DNA of 64,000 nt from positions 32,001 to 96,000 of IMG/VR virus record IMGVR_UViG_3300017973_000001. One strand, 5' to 3'. A program made the position numbers and the translations under genes. The first letter of the stretch is position 1, and each line of letters starts with the position of its first letter. The DNA is from a virus. Positions 4,571 to 50,370 of the stretch are shown one piece after another. The notes beneath the pieces were generated by a model, which was given only the letters and a program-made list of their open reading frames with translations, ran no database searches and was not told the origin of the DNA.

Positions 4571-4781
4571 TCTTTCTAATGCAGAAATTAATGATTCAAT
4601 TCGTCTTTACTTAGCTACTGTATACGGGATCACACTAGAGAAATCTTCATATATCTCTTTTCGAAATGATATGGATGAGACAGTTCCTTTATTATCGGCT
4701 ACTTGTTGGGTAGATGAGCGTACTGTTGAATTGAGGGAAAACCGTGAAATATCCACTTCTATTAAACTACCTGGTAATTAA
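4560..4781 (+). CDS. hypothetical protein
   Basis: GGAGGT RBS; coupled to upstream gene. Confidence 0.6.
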   Translation: MKISLSNAEINDSIRLYLATVYGITLEKSSYISFRNDMDETVPLLSATCWVDERTVELRENREISTSIKLPGN

Positions 4782-8466: not shown

Positions 8467-8991
8467 ATGCGAGGTATAAATGAAATATTAGACGTACTAG
8501 AGCAAGCAAAAGATGTTTTGGGAGGTTTGGCCGGAGTTGATTTTAACTACTCACCACGATCACTAGAAAAGCTTGAAGTAGCTCTTAACGATATGTTCCC
8601 TTTTGGTAGAAAGACAGATGTTGCAGTATCAATACTGATAGGAGTTTACTTAGGTGAAGTAATCGTTAGGAACATAAAAGAAGCAAGTTGGGGTGAGTTC
8701 AACACAAAAGACCCTTTTGAGACAGAAGTTATAGTAAAAAAAGGTGAGATGACTGGTCATGTAAAACCTTTATTGAGGGCGTATAAGTTCCTTAATAGAG
8801 ATAGAACTGACGCTTTATCAGTATTTTATTATATGAATAAAGCTATGCTAGAAGATAAATTAAAGCACAATACGGGGGCTGAGTGGCAAGAAGATGGTCC
8901 CTATATGTATCGCTCATTAAAAGTCACTAAAGAAGAACATGAAGCTGGCTTAAGCTACGAGCAAATACTTGAAAATAGAAAGAAAAACTAA
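8467..8991 (+). CDS. hypothetical protein (DUF3806/immunity-like pattern)
   Basis: DFNYSPRSLEKLE...IGVYLGEVIVRN...W; own extended -10 promoter at 8427-8435. Confidence 0.5.
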   Translation: MRGINEILDVLEQAKDVLGGLAGVDFNYSPRSLEKLEVALNDMFPFGRKTDVAVSILIGVYLGEVIVRNIKEASWGEFNTKDPFETEVIVKKGEMTGHVKPLLRAYKFLNRDRTDALSVFYYMNKAMLEDKLKHNTGAEWQEDGPYMYRSLKVTKEEHEAGLSYEQILENRKKN

Positions 8992-20145: not shown

Positions 20146-21204
20146 TTATGATTTTTTACGTGATTTTCCGTAAGTTTCTCTTGCAGAACGGTTAGCTAAT
20201 TTATGGTACCCACGAACACATGAGAATCTACCTTCATTAACGATTTCAGCTCTAGGGAAGTTTGCTTTTAATATTGGAGTTATGTACTTACGTAGTACGT
20301 CACAACCTCCCCCAGTAAGAATAATAGTGTCGATTTCACTCTTAATATGGATTAACTTTTTGTCGAGTTCACCTACTAAACTTTGAGCATGAATTTGATA
20401 ATTCTCCTCAACAATTTTTCTAATATCAGTATCATTTGAGATAAATCCGGATTGAACGTATTGTGGGATACGTGCAATATTTATGCTTTTACCATAATTA
20501 ATTTCAATGTCGCTTTGAATACCGAGCCACGCTTCATACATACCTTCGTTAAGCGTTGTATTAATTTCCGGGATTGGTGTAAATCCTCTTGAAGCAGTTA
20601 AATTCCATGTACGAGCGCCTAAATCAAATACTATAGTAATTTTTGATAATTCTACACTGTCGGTAACAGAGCCATCATCTTGCAGTAGATAATTAGCAGT
20701 AGTACCAAAAGCCTGGTCCGTTATGAATGTCTTTTTAATATTTATAGCTTTTTGAATAATTGTCCCGTCAGCTAAAGTTACTTTCATTTCATGTGGTTTC
20801 TCAGTAAGTTTTTTTAATAATGCTATACGTTCCGGTACATATTGTTTAACTGGTAAGCCCATTACTAGTACATCTATGTCATCTTGATCCGGACCATTTT
20901 CTGTTAATAGCGTTAGCATTGTTTTAAACAGTGGGTCAAAATCATTTGCAAAATTATGTTTATTTTCTACGCCTTGCCACTTAGCTTTAGGGTTAAGATT
21001 TTGTGCTCCATACCCTACTAGCTTTCTAATATCATCACCGTATTCTACAGTTATATGGCTATGAGGCTCACTATAATCTCCGTCAATACCATTGTCTGGT
21101 TTTGGTACGAATTTGTGTACAAAATTAGGTAAAAATATCTCTAAATCGCCCTTTTTTCCTTTGAAATCTCCAAAGCCATCATCAATCCCAAGCACATTAT
21201 ACAT
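20146..21204 (-). CDS. parM: ParM/StbA-family actin-like segregation ATPase
   Basis: actin motifs GIDDGFGDFK, MGLP, FDLGARTWN, ILTGGG. Confidence 0.9.
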   Translation of the reverse strand: MYNVLGIDDGFGDFKGKKGDLEIFLPNFVHKFVPKPDNGIDGDYSEPHSHITVEYGDDIRKLVGYGAQNLNPKAKWQGVENKHNFANDFDPLFKTMLTLLTENGPDQDDIDVLVMGLPVKQYVPERIALLKKLTEKPHEMKVTLADGTIIQKAINIKKTFITDQAFGTTANYLLQDDGSVTDSVELSKITIVFDLGARTWNLTASRGFTPIPEINTTLNEGMYEAWLGIQSDIEINYGKSINIARIPQYVQSGFISNDTDIRKIVEENYQIHAQSLVGELDKKLIHIKSEIDTIILTGGGCDVLRKYITPILKANFPRAEIVNEGRFSCVRGYHKLANRSARETYGKSRKKS

Positions 21205-21279: not shown

Positions 21280-21304
21280 CTTTTTTATTGGTTAAACCTA
21301 TAAA

Positions 21305-21442
21305 ACTTATAAACTTTTTAATAATATGTTTTATTTTTACAATGAAAAAACTAAGAAAGTTTATAACATGTTATGAAAAAGTTTATAACATTTATGAACA
21401 TGTTATGAAAAGTTATAAACTTTTATGAATATATTCATAAAA
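21305..21442. repeat. parC-like centromere (TTATRAM repeats at ~10-bp spacing)
   Basis: copies at 21361, 21371, 21383, 21392, 21403, 21413, 21423 and inverted at 21434; upstream of parMR promoter. Confidence 0.7.
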
Positions 21443-21534
21443 ACTATTAACATTGGAGCTTTAAACCTACAAAATGCCTAACTAATACGTGGGTATATTG
21501 TCTAATCTAAGTTAGAAGTAGGGGAGGGGGTACT

Positions 21535-23778: not shown

Positions 23779-24663
23779 TCAAAGACACTCCTTTGATTGT
23801 TTTTCTATTTCTTTAACAAATAGCATGGAAATGTCCGGGTTAAATACTTTTTGAGCTTCTACAATACTACGCATAGTCCTAACAAGGCCATGTTGTTGTA
23901 CACTGCTCGCTAAAAGGTCTATTGCTTCATCACTTCTTAATTCAATATCTGCAAATTCTTTAATAAATCCGATTACATCTAAAAAGTCTTTTGTTTCTTT
24001 TAATTTCCCAGTATCAGAAGGTGCTATATCTAAAGGTGCAAGGTCAATTTTATTTATATTTTTTCTTTTTGAGTTATCGATACCGATTGTGCTAAGTTCC
24101 ATTTCATTTCGATTATTAATCTTATGGAAACTAGCTTTGATTAGATCGCCTTCCTCAAAGTATTCATGAATATCAGCTATATATGCGTCCTTAATACGTG
24201 ATACATGGACTAATCCTTGATATTTACCATCTAACGTTTTACATACTGCTCCAACATTAGTGAGTACTTTTACAACTTTTAAATCCAATAATTGTCCGTA
24301 GTAGAAAGGGGGCTTGTCAAAAGGTTTACTGTTGGTATCTTCTGAAGATTTATCTTTCAATGACTTGTTTTCTGTACTATAAACGACTTCTCTTTCATCA
24401 ACTTGATTATCTAGTTCGTTATCTAGTGGTGTATCAGTAGAATCATCATCTTTATACAAAAGTTCTTTGACGTTTAAGTCTTTATATATTCTGTAATAGT
24501 AGTAATTTACGTTTGCATACTGCATGTCATATTTAGTACATAGCCCACGGATGAAGTCAACACTAGTCATTTTATTTGTACCTTCAACCAGTGATATTAA
24601 ATAATCGTGAATTTCTTTTTTTAATTCTTCTTTTACTTTTTGTGAAAGCCTATTAGTTGCCAT
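23779..24663 (-). CDS. S1 RNA-binding domain protein
   Basis: GQLLDLKVVKV...GA......GLVHVSRI...YI.DI.EYFEEGDLI; AAGGAG RBS. Confidence 0.8.
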   Translation of the reverse strand: MATNRLSQKVKEELKKEIHDYLISLVEGTNKMTSVDFIRGLCTKYDMQYANVNYYYYRIYKDLNVKELLYKDDDSTDTPLDNELDNQVDEREVVYSTENKSLKDKSSEDTNSKPFDKPPFYYGQLLDLKVVKVLTNVGAVCKTLDGKYQGLVHVSRIKDAYIADIHEYFEEGDLIKASFHKINNRNEMELSTIGIDNSKRKNINKIDLAPLDIAPSDTGKLKETKDFLDVIGFIKEFADIELRSDEAIDLLASSVQQHGLVRTMRSIVEAQKVFNPDISMLFVKEIEKQSKECL

Positions 24664-44800: not shown

Positions 44801-47355
44801 ACCGGTGGGGGTGGACTCTCTAGCAACTACCTATTAAGCATTAACTGGTGAGCCTACTGGTTTATATACATTCAACCCAATTTTGATACCGTCTTTACCG
44901 GGCACTGATTTATTTCCTTGTGTGCTTGCAATAATTTGTGACTTACCACTTGATGATAAACCGTAGTCTTTATCAAGCTCAACCACGATAGTTAATTTGT
45001 TACCTTTGATTGTCATTTGTACGTTTTGCATTATAATTTCCTCCTATGTGCTCAACGGCACTCTGTTTTAGAGTTGATAACTCCACAAGTACCCCCATGA
45101 TCCAGGGGAGGGGTACCTAGCAACCATCAACGATACATTACTTCAATCCTAGATAGGTCAACGTGATTTTTACCTACTAAGAATCCAACCCTATCAGAAA
45201 TTCTCCAACCATTATCGACGGTAAAGTGTACATTACCACGTACAGTATATACATATGACTCACCGTGTTTTTCTTTCACTTGCTCCAACAATGCTTCAGC
45301 TTCTTTACTGGTAGCTATCTCGTAGTTACCATGTTCATCTACTACTAAATCTGCTTTTTCCTTAAATTCCTCAAACGTCATAGTATTCCCTCCTTAATTA
45401 ACACGTCCCACAATAAGAGATTGCAAGTTCTATAGGGTTTTGTCCAGGGTCATCATGCTCAGTTCCGATAAAGTCACGTCTGCATATATCACAAGTATCC
45501 CAAACAATGCCAACCTCGTTGTTAACGTGGTTAAGCAGTATGTTATAAGGTTTCTCATATCCATGTACGAACTGAGAAGGGATGAGTTTAACTGTTTCTC
45601 CAAATTGTTGCGTAGTTCCTAAAGCCATTTTGTTGAACCTCCTTGTCGTCTGATGAAGTTCTGTAATTCCTTAATACGTTCGTTATTCTTCTTCAGCTTC
45701 TTGAAATCATAGTCAATACCCATGTTTTCAAATTCAAGGTTACGTATCTCTCTTTCAGCTTGTTCGATTGTCATATGAGAACCCTCCGATTTTAGTTTTT
45801 GGGTAGGCCCCCGTGGATCATAGGGGGTGGGGGGGGGCTACCAATTAGTTAGTTACTTTTGCCAACCATAACCAACTTCCTCTAAGTATTCTAAAAACTC
45901 ATCTAATACGTTGTTCATCTTAAAGCCTCCTAAAGTTTTTGGATTGATAACTCCATGCTATCTCCACCCATTGATGAGGAGGGTGGAAATACGTAGCAAT
46001 TATCAATCAGCTACTATTGTGTAAAGGTTACAGTTCTCGATAGTCTTACTAGTTCCATTAGCAAACCCAATAGCTCTTACATTTTCAGTGCCAGTATATT
46101 TCACATCTACACAAGTCTGCTCATCACCAGGAGCCATTACACATAATGTTACATACTTACCGTGAGGTAATTTCACTGATAAGGTGTGCATAGAGTTGCC
46201 AGTTCTTGGGGCTAACCCCGATAAGTCTATAAGTGAGTGGTCACAGTTATTGAAGGTAGGATATGTCTTAATATCTAACTCCTCCATTAGCTCCGGTGTA
46301 ACCGTACCGATATAAACTTTCTTCTTTAAATCGATTGCCATTGTAAATTCCTCCTATATGGTTGTTTTGGATTAAGGGTAGGTACCCTTATTGGAGCTCC
46401 CACTGGTGGGGGCAACCTAAAGATTACCTACATGAATAATGGCATGATGATGAAGAATATAATAGATAACCCACATATACCTCCAACTGCTAACCCTATA
46501 AGGAGTGTGTTCAGTATGTCTTGACCTCTAAGTACATAAGCTTTCTTAAGTAGGGTAGTATCACCATCAAATACACGCTCTGTTAATTCGTTCAAACTAC
46601 CTTTGCCATACTGTATAGGTCTTGAATTAGGTTGAGCACCTTCACCCATACGGATTTTTGCTAACTTTTCACTAACTGTCATCATTAAAATTACCTCGTT
46701 TCAATTTTCTGATTTTTTACACTCATAATTTTACGGTTACATAAAAAAGAGAGCCGATAATGATACGGTTACACCGTACATATTTACCGACTCTAAAAGG
46801 GGACCTAATAGATACTTATATGGGGTATCTGTTCAAGGCACTAAAACAGTACCTTTACGCAAGAATGGGGGACGGGGAATGTACCTTTTGGGGTGTGAAT
46901 ATAATAGCTTCTTGCTCCCAATTTAGTACACTCATATAACTTACCTTCCTCAATACGGTATCTAGTACCTTCCCATTTAACTACGCAACTTTTAATAGCT
47001 CTAATCATGTTCAACACTCCTTTTAGTATTTTGAACACATACTCCATAAAAAGTTCAGTCTACAACTCTACCCCTATTCACAAGGGAGGGGGGGGGCTTA
47101 AAGCTGACGTACTCTACTAACAAAACTCATAGTATAGTTCATATATAGAGTACATATAGATACAAGTCCATCACGTAACCTATTACTCTCTTTCTCTGCT
47201 AACTTCTCAATACGTTTGTTCACGCTATGTACAAACTCTGCTGAATACATTACTCTAACTCTCTCAATACAAGTCAGTCCTTCAATTACTTGCTGAGCCA
47301 CTGACTCCACATTTTCCATATATTCCTCTATATCTAACGTAAATAGTCTCATCAT
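38822..47355 (-). other. early (host-takeover-like) cluster of ~22 small CDS (38822-39409, 39421-39738, 39797-40084, 40081-40329, 40335-40619, 40701-41141, 41197-41484, 41498-42388, 42601-42846, 42830-43141, 43186-43677, 43796-44053, 44050-44397, 44412-44750, 44834-45031, 45127-45381, 45398-45628, 46003-46341, 46428-46685, 46841-47008, 47098-47355)
   Basis: same strand, mostly strong AGGAGG RBSs, separated by GC-rich stem-loops. Confidence 0.75.
46743..46794 (-). terminator. intrinsic terminator inside the early region
   Basis: AGAGUCGGUAA...UUAUCGGCUCU stem followed by U-tract. Confidence 0.7.
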
Positions 47356-47833
47356 AATACCTCCGGTTATAGTTTAGTTCCTTATGAATACGGGTTGAGT
47401 TGTAGACTGATATAATAGCCAACCCAAAGAACCCCCAGGAGGTGGGGGCGGGCTGACCTTGAAGCACAATCAAGACATATAATCATATACATATAGACAC
47501 TATACACACTCACTCTCTCTATAGAGTCCTCACTAGCACCATACGTACAACATCACCGGTTTCTTTGAAACCTACTCCGTACCAATAGATAGGGTTGTAC
47601 CATGAGAATGTGTAGGACTCGACGTTGAGAATGATAGTGTAAGAGCCTCCGGATATGGAGAGTTTATGGTATGGGTACATAGAATCTGAGAGTGATACTC
47701 TAGCTAAATGCGTTCCAAACTACGAAACTCGTAACCATGCCCAAAAGCTCGACTTTATGCTTAATCTCATAATATCCATTATGTGCTTAGCCTTGCTACT
47801 AACAAGAGACACCTAACGGTGTCCCTACTTTGC

Positions 47834-48325
47834 TTACAGATACGGTAGGATTCTCTCTTGTTGCTCCACTGTTAAGTCGTGGAACTTGCTTATGTCTTTG
47901 TTCACTAAGTCGATTAGTATTTGAGTACCTTTATCGACAAGGGGTTTGCTAGCCTTAGCTTCTTGTCTTTCAAGTGTAATCTGTTTAATTTCTTCCTTTT
48001 GCTTACGTGCTGATACTTCTTTCTTAATATCCTCGTCGCCTACTATTGCGAATACTTGAAGTTTGATATGTTCATACCCAGGAGCCTTCAGCTTTATCCA
48101 TGCACCACTATTACCTACTGCATATGATTTACCACTACCACTTCTAGGCATTTTCTCTAGGTTCTGAAGCATTGTGTCCATATCCCATCCAGTTAAGTCC
48201 ATAGACATTTTAAGCTTCTTAGATGTAGAATCCACACCTATCTTTAAGTTATGTACTGGCTTAGGTGCTTTTTCGCCTTTTACCTTAGTGTCTACTACCT
48301 TGTTTTGTTGATTAACTACTGTCAT
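47834..48325 (-). CDS. first gene of the early region; related to 44834..45031
   Basis: AGGAGGT RBS; SGSGKS...PG...IKLQV pattern. Confidence 0.8.
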   Translation of the reverse strand: MTVVNQQNKVVDTKVKGEKAPKPVHNLKIGVDSTSKKLKMSMDLTGWDMDTMLQNLEKMPRSGSGKSYAVGNSGAWIKLKAPGYEHIKLQVFAIVGDEDIKKEVSARKQKEEIKQITLERQEAKASKPLVDKGTQILIDLVNKDISKFHDLTVEQQERILPYL

Positions 48326-48929
48326 GTTAATGACCTCCTATTGTTTTGTTATTGGATTATAAGGGTTAGATAGCCCTTGTTAGTAGCAAGGCAATATAAA
48401 GCCTTTTCCCCTATTTCGTCACCATGCCTCATAGACTTATTCGCTCTAACCCTTTCGGGGTTGTTATGGCGTACATACTCACGTATGTATTTTCCTATGG
48501 ACGGGGGAGCCGTTCGCAAGCCGGTAACTTCTTACTTGCTATCTCTAGTGGTTAGACTACTCACGTCTATATGTGGCGTAAGCCATAGACTGTTAATCTA
48601 GGTCACTATGAGGAGACCCAGTTCCTAGCCAATTAAGACCCGTTATTACAAGCTATCATATACACCAGTTTAATACGTGGGGTGTCAACCCTAGCATAGT
48701 GAGACTATGCCCGTACATTGAAGTAGTGTATAACCCTAACCCGTTTTTCACGTTTGGGAACTACAAGACCCGTTTCAGTGGGGTCAAACTACTATACATA
48801 GAGGGGGCAAGAAAACACGTTTTCCACGTCTTACCCCTTGCCAATGATGGAAGTGACACTTCAATCAAAGGAAAAGAAAGGGGGCTCGATACAGTACAAA
48901 CCTATTAAAAAGGCAACCCACTATGTAAT

Positions 48930-48942
48930 TTGTCAAAGAACA
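48930..48942 (-). promoter_or_regulatory. boxA-like antitermination element
   Basis: TGTTCTTTGACAA preceded by hairpins, ~100 nt from presumed start. Confidence 0.65.
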
Positions 48943-49035
48943 ATGAAACCGGGAATCTCAAGAACTTTGAAACCCGTAAAGCTATGAACGGGGCTAGGAG
49001 CTCCCCGTGTCGCAACCAACAACTCGTTTCGACAA

Positions 49036-49095
49036 CCGTTATGTATCACGCATTTCAAATCTTGTGTGCAATTTTTTTATTTATTTTATTTTTAT
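49036..49095 (-). promoter_or_regulatory. probable early promoter with A-rich UP element
   Basis: A-tracts then TTGCAC...TGATACAT; -10 spacing not canonical. Confidence 0.4.
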
Positions 49096-49587
49096 TTGCT
49101 CTGTTTTTGGTCATGCCGTGGGCATGAAGTGGAAAAGAGCCAAAACCCTTGATATATAAGGACCTACCCCAGTGCCTAGAGACAAATTTTTAACGAAAAT
49201 GGGCCGTGGTGGCATAACAACACCTACACAGTATTTTTGCTGAAGGGCAATTCGGTACAACCGTGCTTTTTCGGATCAATGACATACCATTGGTGTGTTT
49301 GGGGGAATTGGGGCGCTAAGGCTCCTGCGTAATTGGGAATTGGGGGTGGGGGAAAGTGGGAGATGTGGGAATGGTGAGACCCCGTTGGAGCGTTTCCGTG
49401 GGGCGTGAGGTGGGCCTGGTAGATCGTAAAAGTTTGGCATTTAGAATAGGGAACTTTTTGAAATCTGTAAAAGTTGTGGGTTTAGAATGGGTAACTTTTA
49501 CAATTCCGTGGTCCGGGCACCAGGTAGTGGGAGCATGTTGGAGTATCTTTCCTGGGGGCGTGAGCTGAGATCATTGGGAGTTCGGAA

Positions 49588-49675
49588 AAGTAGACATTAC
49601 CCTATAGGAAGTAGACATTACCCTATAGGAAGTAGACATTCTCTTATAAATATATTTATAGGAATATGTCTACTT
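49588..49675. repeat. 21-bp tandem repeats plus 46-bp imperfect palindrome
   Basis: AAGTAGACATTACCCTATAGG x2.5; central TATAAATATATTTATA. Confidence 0.85.
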
Positions 49676-49917
49676 TATGGGAAAAGTGCGAGACTCCTGT
49701 GGGTATAGTGGGGTGGGTGGGAACCAATGAGTGCGAGCAACCCGGAGTGATTGGGGGCCTGGTGCATGATCTATAATATAAAAACGGGGGAGTTGGGAAA
49801 TACGTGGGAAATATTTATACGGGAAAATTTTTACTAAAGGGTAAATATGGTAAAACCTATACTTTTCAAGGTTTTGGTGTGGTAAAATAAGGCTATAATG
49901 TAAACACGGGGGACAAC

Positions 49918-50370
49918 ATGGACTTATACAAAATGCTTTTTGGACAGAATGTACAGACAGATAAGATTTTAGATTTAATTAATTTAAAGAAGGAAGATAT
50001 TAGTAGGTTCCGTGATTGTGGAGTTGATAAGAAAAACCTCCTTATATGGATTCTTACTAGAACTGGTATTAAGAATGTGATGGGAGCAAGCAACGGGCAC
50101 CTGGAACTTAAAAGCCATTTTCTACATAGAGTGAATGAGCCACATGATCCTACATATGAGCTTATTTATTTTACGATTCCAACTCTAGCTGACACTAGTG
50201 AGATAGAACATACACGGATTCCTAAGCTGAAGGAAATGTTTGAGCAAGCTAGTTGGGACGTTGAGAACGGTAAACTAAATGAAATGACACGAAAATTCAT
50301 GGCCGACTTAGAGTTACAATTAAAAAATGCTAAACCTGGCCAAGTATTTTCTTTAATAGAGGAAGATTGA
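49918..50370 (+). CDS. hypothetical protein
   Basis: GGGGG RBS; RFRDC...TRTG...D.TY..IYF. Confidence 0.7.
   Translation: MDLYKMLFGQNVQTDKILDLINLKKEDISRFRDCGVDKKNLLIWILTRTGIKNVMGASNGHLELKSHFLHRVNEPHDPTYELIYFTIPTLADTSEIEHTRIPKLKEMFEQASWDVENGKLNEMTRKFMADLELQLKNAKPGQVFSLIEED

What the first reader, a model, noticed from the sequence alone, without database searches (positions are those of the whole stretch)
47400..49040. Large structured RNA with an embedded protein gene heads the 25-kb early region: candidate new RNA-protein antitermination system
Seen: ~700 nt upstream and ~430 nt downstream of ORF 47834..48325 are non-coding, more GC-rich and full of hairpins (GAAA loop 48448-62, GUGA loop 48472-89, stem 48427-34/48606-13, hairpin 48694-710). 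A perfect 17-bp stem (47790-47806 with 48376-48392) loops out the ORF. Further pairings nest correctly around it (48653-59/47631-37, 48686-93/47590-97, 48726-32/47501-07), although these short ones could individually be chance. Downstream lie a strong terminator (46743-94) and ~20 hairpins. Established analogies: HK022 put, B. subtilis EAR and pLS20 conAn (protein plus RNA at an operon start). Inference: a processive antiterminator RNP or a new large ncRNA class. I found no group I/II intron hallmarks.
Basis: partly seen in the sequence, partly recalled or inferred. Interest (0 to 1): 0.9.

Follow-up and report, generated by a model that had tools for sequence, protein, structure and literature searches.

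The report
rRNA-operon-like leader wrapping phage early genes
The first early genes of this uncultured 109-kb phage are each enclosed in a long RNA helix downstream of a boxA-like signal resembling the one bacteria place before ribosomal RNA genes; the layout recurs in five related phage lineages, so this looks like borrowed rRNA-type transcription and processing rather than one giant new RNA.

Summary
The core observation holds. A perfect 17-bp pairing, 28 bp with wobbles, loops out ORF 47834-48325, and the named hairpins exist. The short "nested" leader/downstream pairings occur at chance frequency and no fold uses them.

The stem is not a one-off. The next two ORFs are enclosed the same way, and the unit ends at a strong terminator (46794-46742). 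Four other lineages of the same phage group (RecA 61-63% identical) share this layout with unrelated stem sequences. In order it runs: 5' hairpin, a boxA-like motif G..C.UUGA.AA, a long stem enclosing RBS plus a homologue of ORF163, a conserved CAUAAU-N4-AUUAUG hairpin, then a structured spacer. The motif matches the Paenibacillaceae rrn boxA GAUCUUUGAAAA at all 8 fixed positions. Stem mismatches are mostly G-U on the mRNA strand (11 against 2-3).

Best reading, at about 45% confidence: an rRNA-operon-style early leader. Host NusB/S10 load at boxA, giving processive transcription and chaperoned long-range helices. RNase III then cuts those helices into end-protected monocistronic mRNAs. No step has been shown experimentally.

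ORF163 founds a small orphan family with no known fold or function. No Rfam family matches. Notes from this scan, untested here, describe the same design in other phages on other DNA.

The parts
49066..49108 (-). Putative promoter: an A-rich tract followed by TTGCAC (49071-49066). The -10 element is poorly defined.
   Evidence: Reading. The same A-rich + TTGCnn arrangement lies upstream of the leader in G001, G002, G007 and G006. No transcript data.
49008..49034 (-). 5' hairpin of the leader, in a boxB-like position
   Evidence: MFE helix of 9 bp. G001 has a hairpin with a similar loop, G.G.UGUUG. G002 and G007 have a hairpin at the same place, with compensatory changes.
48930..48941 (-). boxA-like motif GUUCUUUGACAA
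   Evidence: It is the only <=1-mismatch match to TGTTCTTTGAAAA in the 64 kb. The motif G..C.UUGA.AA is present in all six related leaders. The Paenibacillaceae rrn leader boxA GAUCUUUGAAAA fits all 8 fixed positions.
48393..49035 (-). About 640 nt of non-coding leader with local hairpins (GAAA and GUGA tetraloops)
   Evidence: No credible ORF. MFE z of -2.0 to -2.6 on the sense strand. No Rfam match.
48365..48392 (-). 5' arm of the stem that encloses ORF163
   Evidence: 17 perfect pairs, then an extension in which 3 of 4 mismatches are G-U on the mRNA strand.
47834..48325 (-). ORF163 (P0001), the first early gene, with a GGAGG RBS inside the loop. It founds a small orphan protein family.
   Evidence: Homologues P0002-P0009 and the G408 ORF. 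No Pfam or PHROG match. AF2 pLDDT 74.6 with no fold match.
47790..47817 (-). 3' arm of the stem that encloses ORF163
47764..47786 (-). Conserved small hairpin GCACAUAAU-GGAU-AUUAUG, directly after the 3' arm
   Evidence: The same sequence and position occur in G001, G002, G007 and G408. The hairpin is weak, so it is probably a recognition site.
47462..47788 (-). Self-contained structured spacer: two long imperfect hairpins closed by about 27 bp
   Evidence: MFE. z -5.35 to -5.6 on the sense strand against -2.3 to -3.0 on the antisense strand. Structured spacers of 0.65-0.85 kb sit at the same place in the relatives; G408's was not scored because the run timed out.
47417..47458 (-). C-rich hairpin (GCCCGCCCCCACC...GGGGG) followed by UUCUUUGGG, before the next stem
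   Evidence: Similar CCCGCCC hairpins occur in G001, G002, G007 and G408.
47055..47410 (-). Second stem-enclosed gene: arms 47410-47380 and 47085-47055 (31 nt, 90% complementary) around ORF85 (47355-47098)
   Evidence: This is the strongest long-range inverted repeat in the whole 109-kb genome.
46819..47048 (-). Third, weaker enclosure: a 14-bp helix 47048-47033/46834-46819 around a 55-aa ORF (probable start 47008 with an AAAGGAG RBS, stop 46841)
   Evidence: MFE and reading
46742..46794 (-). Intrinsic terminator that closes the 2.3-kb unit
   Evidence: Hairpin dG -20.4 kcal/mol followed by UUUUUUAU

Best explanation
This is the cis-acting head of the leftward early operon, built like a bacterial rRNA operon with protein genes in place of the rRNAs.

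Proposed sequence of events:
1. Transcription starts near 49040-49070 (minus strand).
2. The nascent leader presents a 5' hairpin and a boxA-like element. Host NusB/S10 load there, with NusA and NusG, onto RNA polymerase.
3. The modified polymerase is processive. It may read through the terminator at 46794-46742 and the hairpin-rich 25-kb early region.
4. Because the leader stays tethered, the complex helps each upstream stem arm find its partner about 300-600 nt later.
5. The resulting 14-40 bp helices enclose exactly RBS plus ORF, for three genes in a row.
6. Host RNase III cuts these helices into monocistronic mRNAs whose ends stay base-paired, which protects them from RNase J1 and 3' exonucleases. 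The leader and the 330-nt structured spacer are released.

Shown: the sequence elements, their conservation and their strand bias. Inferred: Nus loading, antitermination, RNase III cleavage and mRNA stabilisation.
For: (1) Genome-wide, the best long-range (100-3000 nt) inverted repeats of G000, G001 and G002 all lie at the syntenic head of the early operon. They enclose ORF163 homologues or the next small ORF. G007 and G408 show the same, giving at least 8 ORF-enclosing stems with unrelated sequences.

(2) Each stem ends 6-35 nt before the start codon and restarts 5-28 nt after the stop codon.

(3) Mismatches in the stems are G-U on the mRNA strand 11 times and A-C 2-3 times. G002 against G007 shows C-G to U-G and A.C to A-U changes.

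(4) The motif G..C.UUGA.AA is present in all six leaders (five lineages), roughly 100-200 nt after the promoter-like site. The rrn leader boxA of a Paenibacillaceae genome (GAUCUUUGAAAA, invariant in 6 operons) satisfies all 8 fixed positions. The B. subtilis boxA AUGAUCUUUGAAA binds NusB (PMC13753749).

(5) In rrn operons the boxA complex is proposed to deliver the leader arm to its complement beyond 16S rRNA, forming the RNase III site (PMC8632103).

(6) The unit ends in a strong terminator, and sigma-A-like promoters are not enriched in the early region.

(7) Host range fits: family members are named Paenibacillus and Brevibacillus.
Against: - No transcript, cleavage or binding data exist. 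The only run holding this DNA is a DNA metagenome.
- The boxA-like motif differs from the host consensus at variable positions: C instead of A in UUGACAA.
- The 8-position pattern occurs 5 times in the 109-kb genome.
- An exact copy of the 13-mer sits by chance, antisense, inside a gene of G002.
- rrn antitermination has not been demonstrated in Bacillales (PMC13753749).
- The promoter is not well defined.
- The leaders are not unusually stable (z +1.3 to -2.3).
- The model does not explain the conserved CAUAAU hairpin, the long structured spacer or the role of ORF163.
Confidence: 0.45

Rival explanations
1. Lambda N/nut-like system. The ORF163-family protein, the first gene after the boxA-like site and ahead of the terminator, is a phage antiterminator. 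It would bind a conserved leader hairpin (the 5' hairpin or the CAUAAU hairpin) and, with Nus factors, allow read-through into the delayed-early genes. The stem would regulate its own translation or stability, as the RNase III site does in the lambda N leader.
For: The gene order boxA, then first small gene, then terminator is also seen in G408. The protein family co-occurs with the RNA module in all five lineages. A sequence-conserved weak hairpin suggests a protein site.
Against: No similarity to N, Q, or any known RNA-binding or antiterminator fold. The basic N-terminal tail is not conserved: it is absent in G001 and G408. The support is positional only.
Confidence: 0.15
2. A new class of large structured non-coding RNA (0.3-0.9 kb spacer, possibly together with the leader) that has its own function, such as a scaffold, decoy or ribozyme. 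The ORFs would be cassettes inserted in helix loops.
For: Spacers are structured in the four lineages scored (sense z -2.6 to -5.4). G002 against G007 has 17 of 134 predicted pairs with compensatory changes. The island GAUAGCGAWGCCUAG is shared by G001, G002, G007 and G408. The ORF81 stem-loop of G002 is replaced by an ORF-less segment in G007. No Rfam match.
Against: G000 lacks the shared island, and its spacer shares only short motifs with the others. Antisense z-scores are as low in G001 and G007. Size and content vary widely. The leader and spacer do not pair with each other. Only 2-3 sequences per clade are available, so covariation is not statistically secure.
Confidence: 0.2
3. DNA-level feature: the inverted repeats are recombination sites of invertible or mobile gene cassettes.
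For: Inverted repeats of 17-37 bp flank single genes. One cassette is present in G002 and absent in G007, with boundaries at the repeat ends.
Against: Each pair of repeats has a different sequence. There is no recombinase or transposase next to them, and no extra copies in the genome. Mismatches favour G-U on the transcribed strand. The arms hug RBS and stop codon on the mRNA.
Confidence: 0.05

Closest known systems
Bacterial rrn operon leader (boxB-boxA-boxC, leader-trailer helix cut by RNase III, rrn antitermination complex)
   Same: A promoter-proximal hairpin is followed by a boxA-type motif, then the upstream arm of a long-range helix that closes around the downstream product. The motif matches the host-family rrn boxA at every conserved position.
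   Different: The helices enclose protein-coding ORFs with their RBS, not rRNA. There are three enclosures in tandem, and a terminator ends the unit. No boxC was identified. Nus loading is untested, and rrn antitermination has not yet been shown in Bacillales.
Phage lambda nutL / N leader (boxA-boxB, RNase III-sensitive hairpin before N, terminator tL1)
   Same: An early leader carries boxA and hairpins, the first gene is a small protein, a terminator follows, and double-stranded RNA lies next to the first gene's RBS.
   Different: No N homologue or arginine-rich motif is conserved. The stem spans the whole gene rather than being a local hairpin. The host is a Gram-positive bacterium.
Phage T7 early region (RNase III sites between early genes); Bacillus phage SP82 RNase III processing (from my own knowledge, not checked in papers here)
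   Same: A polycistronic early transcript is cut at double-stranded sites into stable monocistronic mRNAs.
   Different: The T7 and SP82 sites are local hairpins between genes. Here the two strands of each site lie on either side of a gene.
HK022 put, B. subtilis EAR, pLS20 conAn, LoaP leaders
   Same: All are cis-acting RNA at the start of a long operon, thought to confer processivity.
   Different: No sequence or structure match: Rfam gave no hit and no protein homology was found. These analogies rest on position alone.

Membership tests
rrn-type boxA / Nus-factor antitermination leader | A boxA sequence matching the host rrn boxA, on the transcribed strand, in a promoter-proximal leader | tested here: met
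   GUUCUUUGACAA at 48941-48930 (-) against the Paenibacillaceae rrn GAUCUUUGAAAA: 10 of 12 identical. All 8 positions conserved among the six phage leaders agree.
rrn-type boxA / Nus-factor antitermination leader | NusB/S10 binding and termination-resistant elongation | not testable with these tools
   Requires EMSA or NMR with NusB:S10, and read-through reporters.
rrn-type leader-trailer processing helix | A long-range helix of at least about 20 bp formed by sequences flanking the product, conserved in structure but not in sequence | tested here: met
   Stems of 28-37 bp in five lineages with unrelated sequences; top-ranked inverted repeats genome-wide; G-U bias on the sense strand.
rrn-type leader-trailer processing helix | Cleavage by RNase III | not testable with these tools
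   No RNA data. No phage-encoded RNase III, so a host enzyme would be needed.
Lambda N/nut antitermination | An N-like protein with an arginine-rich RNA-binding motif and a boxB hairpin that it binds | tested here: not met
   No homology or fold match. The basic N-terminus is not conserved in the family.
Known large ncRNAs and introns (ROOL, GOLLD, OLE, HEARO, group I/II introns, put, EAR) | A match to the Rfam covariance model | tested here: not met
   No hit at gathering thresholds over the 64 kb. No hit to these families at E<=10 over 46500-50000.
Invertible DNA segment (inverton) | Both orientations present in sequence data, with a site-specific recombinase nearby | tested here: inconclusive
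   Only assembled contigs of one DNA run could be laid. They give a single orientation, and contigs drop rare variants. No recombinase was seen adjacent.

The most novel reading that the evidence does not exclude
The leader, the gene-enclosing stem, the conserved CAUAAU hairpin and the structured spacer, together with the orphan ORF163-family protein, form a previously undescribed RNA-protein machine specific to this group of Paenibacillaceae phages. It could be a protein-RNA antiterminator or RNA-processing particle that merely co-opts a boxA. In that case the spacer would be a new large structured RNA class.
Probability: 0.15. Interest if true: 0.8.

Novelty: new variant of a known kind. Interest (0 to 1): 0.6.

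Why it matters
If the model is right, Gram-positive phages copy the whole logic of an rRNA operon to express their first proteins: boxA loading, chaperoned long-range helices and RNase III release.

This would give three things:
- A natural, genetically simple reporter for whether boxA/Nus complexes antiterminate and chaperone RNA in Bacillales, which is still unproven for rrn operons there (PMC13753749).
- A general design for end-protected mRNAs.
- A small conserved protein family and a conserved hairpin whose roles in early infection can be tested directly.

Tried and rejected
- Rfam gave nothing relevant, at gathering thresholds on the whole window and at E<=10 on 46500-50000.
- blastn of the region against INPHARED phages: no match. 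tblastn of P0005 against the same phages: no match.
- Pfam, PHROGs, PDB sequence search and the ESM Atlas for ORF163: nothing.
- The single-sequence AF2 model was poor, pLDDT 40.
- The 9-sequence model (pLDDT 74.6) found no fold by Foldseek against PDB or BFVD, nor by VIA-align wide (best Z 3.8).
- Protein-pattern scans with P0001 and with alignment A1 of viral contigs, and one with A1 of metagenome contigs, found no loci.
- A 401-genome Paenibacillaceae sample held only the one known prophage remnant.
- A scan for the motif GAGAWAGCGAAGCCTAG returned only the known relatives plus chance hits.
- The exact 13-mer boxA hit at G002:401-413 lies antisense inside a gene and is a chance match.
- Sequencing runs: no RNA holder is listed, and only one peat-metagenome DNA run (possibly the source of this DNA) holds the stretch. 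Its contigs show no joint or inversion.
- No phage-encoded RNase III.
- The island GAUAGCGAWGCCUAG is absent from G000.
- A sigma-A promoter reading of TTGACAA was rejected: no -10 element follows at the right spacing in any lineage (reading).

Full report
**Setting.** The window is bases 32001-96000 of a complete 109,430-bp IMG/VR phage genome with direct terminal repeats. Its DNA polymerase is only about 33% identical to those of Bacillus and Listeria phages. Genes from about 23.7 kb to 48.3 kb lie on the minus strand, and a divergent gene-free region spans 49.0-49.9 kb. The finding therefore has to be read on the minus strand: 49040 to 48326 is a 5' leader, 48325-47834 is the first gene, and 47833-47400 follows it.

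**Checking the observation.** The 17-nt arms 47790-47806 and 48376-48392 are perfectly complementary, and the pairing extends to 28 nt. The tetraloop hairpins and the other named complements exist. The terminator is a -20.4 kcal/mol hairpin followed by U6. On the minus strand the downstream flank folds far better than shuffles (z -5.6), and the leader folds modestly better (z -2.6). Both flanks fold better on the minus strand than on the plus strand.

The three short "nesting" pairings are real strings, but they are no more frequent than chance: 18 complementary 7-mers against 15.0 +/- 4.7 in shuffles. When the ORF is replaced by a tetraloop, the joint fold contains no leader-downstream pair and gains only 1.2 kcal/mol, less than with a shuffled partner. 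The two flanks are therefore separate folding units, joined only by the stem around the gene.

**The stem is one of a series.** The strongest long-range inverted repeat in the whole genome is 47055-47085 with 47380-47410 (31 nt, 90% complementary), and it encloses the next ORF, 47098-47355. The ORF163 stem ranks second. The full-transcript MFE also closes a 14-bp helix around the third small ORF, directly before the terminator. The unit is therefore leader, then three stem-enclosed ORFs, with a 330-nt structured spacer and a C-rich hairpin after the first ORF, then a terminator.

**Relatives.** RecA-based searches found related phages:
- G001, 124.7 kb;
- G002, 112.4 kb, flagged as a provirus.

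Both are 48% GC and are syntenic with this genome. They share no detectable DNA similarity with the finding. Yet their best long-range inverted repeats genome-wide lie at the syntenic head of the early operon:
- G001 87408-41/87933-66 (34 nt);
- G002 22874-910/23394-430 (37 nt);
- G002 22547-73/22814-40 (27 nt).

The first two enclose a 138-139-aa ORF that aligns with ORF163. A profile search then gave a small family (P0001-P0009), with members named Paenibacillus and Brevibacillus laterosporus.

Further loci are G007, a truncated copy in Paenibacillus thiaminolyticus and a fifth lineage, G408. G408 was found through a conserved hairpin, its RecA is 61% identical to that of G000, and it carries two ORF-enclosing stems. 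In every case the upstream arm ends 6-35 nt before the start codon and the downstream arm begins 5-28 nt after the stop codon. So the loop is exactly RBS plus ORF.

Mismatches in the stems are G-U on the mRNA strand 11 times, against 2-3 A-C. This argues for selection at the RNA level on the transcribed strand. In G007 the second cassette of G002 is replaced by an ORF-less segment, with boundaries at the foot of the stem.

**Shared leader elements.** All lineages have the following elements:
- an A-rich tract plus TTGCnn;
- a 5' hairpin;
- the motif G..C.UUGA.AA.

The motif reads GUUCUUUGACAA in G000, GCUCCUUGACAA in G001, GAUCAUUGACAA in G002, GUCCUUUGACAA in G007, GCACCUUGAAAA in G006 and GGUCUUUGAUAA in G408.

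I took six rrn operons from a complete Paenibacillaceae genome. Their leaders carry an invariant UUGAUCUUUGAAAACUGAAC, which fits all eight fixed positions of the phage motif. A recent paper gives the B. subtilis rrn boxA as AUGAUCUUUGAAA and shows that it binds NusB. The same paper notes that rrn antitermination itself has not been demonstrated in B. subtilis (PMC13753749).

Directly after the downstream arm, all lineages keep the hairpin GCWCAUAAU-NNNU-AUUAUG. It is thermodynamically weak, so it is probably a recognition site. A structured spacer follows (sense z -2.6 to -5.4 in the four lineages scored). G002 against G007 has 17 of 134 predicted pairs with compensatory changes. CCCGCCC-type hairpins precede the next ORF.

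**Interpretation.** The anatomy is that of an rRNA operon: a hairpin, boxA, then a leader-trailer helix around the product. In rrn operons the boxA-nucleated complex makes the polymerase termination-resistant. It is also proposed to deliver the leader arm to its complement beyond 16S rRNA, creating the RNase III site (PMC8632103; see also the abstract of PMC10250234 listed).

I therefore propose that the phage recruits NusB/S10 at its boxA-like motif. The modified polymerase would transcribe through the terminator and the hairpin-rich early region. The chaperoned helices would be cut by host RNase III into monocistronic mRNAs with paired, exonuclease-resistant ends. No phage RNase III was found.

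Cautions:
- The motif pattern occurs five times in the genome.
- An exact 13-mer copy occurs by chance inside a G002 gene.
- The promoter is not well defined.
- Nothing is known experimentally. The only run holding this DNA is a DNA metagenome, whose contigs show a single arrangement.

**The protein.** ORF163 has a good RBS and is conserved as a family, so it is a real gene. It has no Pfam, PHROG, PDB or Atlas relative. A pLDDT-74.6 model shows a small beta domain plus a long helix and matches no known fold. Its position, as the first gene after boxA and ahead of a terminator, recalls lambda N, but nothing else supports that role.

**Comparison and novelty.** No Rfam family matches, including introns, ROOL, GOLLD, OLE and put/EAR-type elements. 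The closest known system is the rrn leader and leader-trailer helix; lambda nutL/N and T7-type RNase III processing are functional cousins. Notes from this scan describe the same "boxA plus stems around early genes" design in other, unrelated phages (e1-6017491, e1-397537, e1-242934). I did not test those notes.

I class the finding as a new variant of a known kind. It would be a Gram-positive version with three tandem ORF enclosures, an associated orphan protein family, a conserved hairpin and a long structured spacer that the rrn model does not explain.

Noticed in passing
window 49100-49900 (both strands): The divergent gene-free region holds three direct 21-nt repeats AAGTAGACATTACCCTATAGG plus an inverted copy (49588-49676). 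It also holds two 41-nt repeats (49426-49507) and C-rich runs. The run CCCAAUUCCCAAUUAC recurs upstream of the G001 leader. These may be operator or origin-like sites. The Logan contigs break at the 21-nt repeats.
   Followed up: partly
window ~49810-49835 (-); G001 ~86975-87000; G002 ~23895-23925 and ~24150-24180; rc(L088) ~8845-8865: A motif AAAAAUUUCCCGUAGG(N)GUCAUGA is kept upstream of the early promoter-like site in G001, G002 and G408, and occurs twice in G002. A looser copy (AAAAAUUUUCCCGUAUA) occurs in G000. It is probably a DNA site for a regulator.
   Followed up: no
window 21300-21454: A cluster of AT-rich inverted and tandem repeats lies next to an actin-like (ALP_N / Alp7A-type) gene at 20146-21204. 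It looks like a plasmid-style partition centromere, which suggests a phage-plasmid lifestyle. G002 and G007 are flagged as proviruses.
   Followed up: no
L033:4009-4302 (G002) against L034:3995-4095 (G007): A complete stem-plus-ORF module (a 63-81-aa ORF) is present in G002. In G007 it is replaced by about 100 nt without an ORF, and homology resumes exactly at the foot of the stem. Stem-enclosed ORFs therefore behave as exchangeable cassettes.
   Followed up: partly
The copy at 47449-47431 is followed by GUUCUUUG, the first 8 nt of the leader's boxA-like motif. Similar CCCGCCC hairpins occur in all relatives.
   Followed up: partly
window 47485-47530 (-); G001 L037:4009-4040 and 4660-4720; G002 L033:4470-4500: Recurrent CUCUCUAUA(UA)GAGAG, GUGAGUGUGU and UAUAUAG motifs occur inside the structured spacers of several lineages. 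CUCUAUAUAGAGAG is a perfect palindrome. Their meaning is unknown.
   Followed up: no
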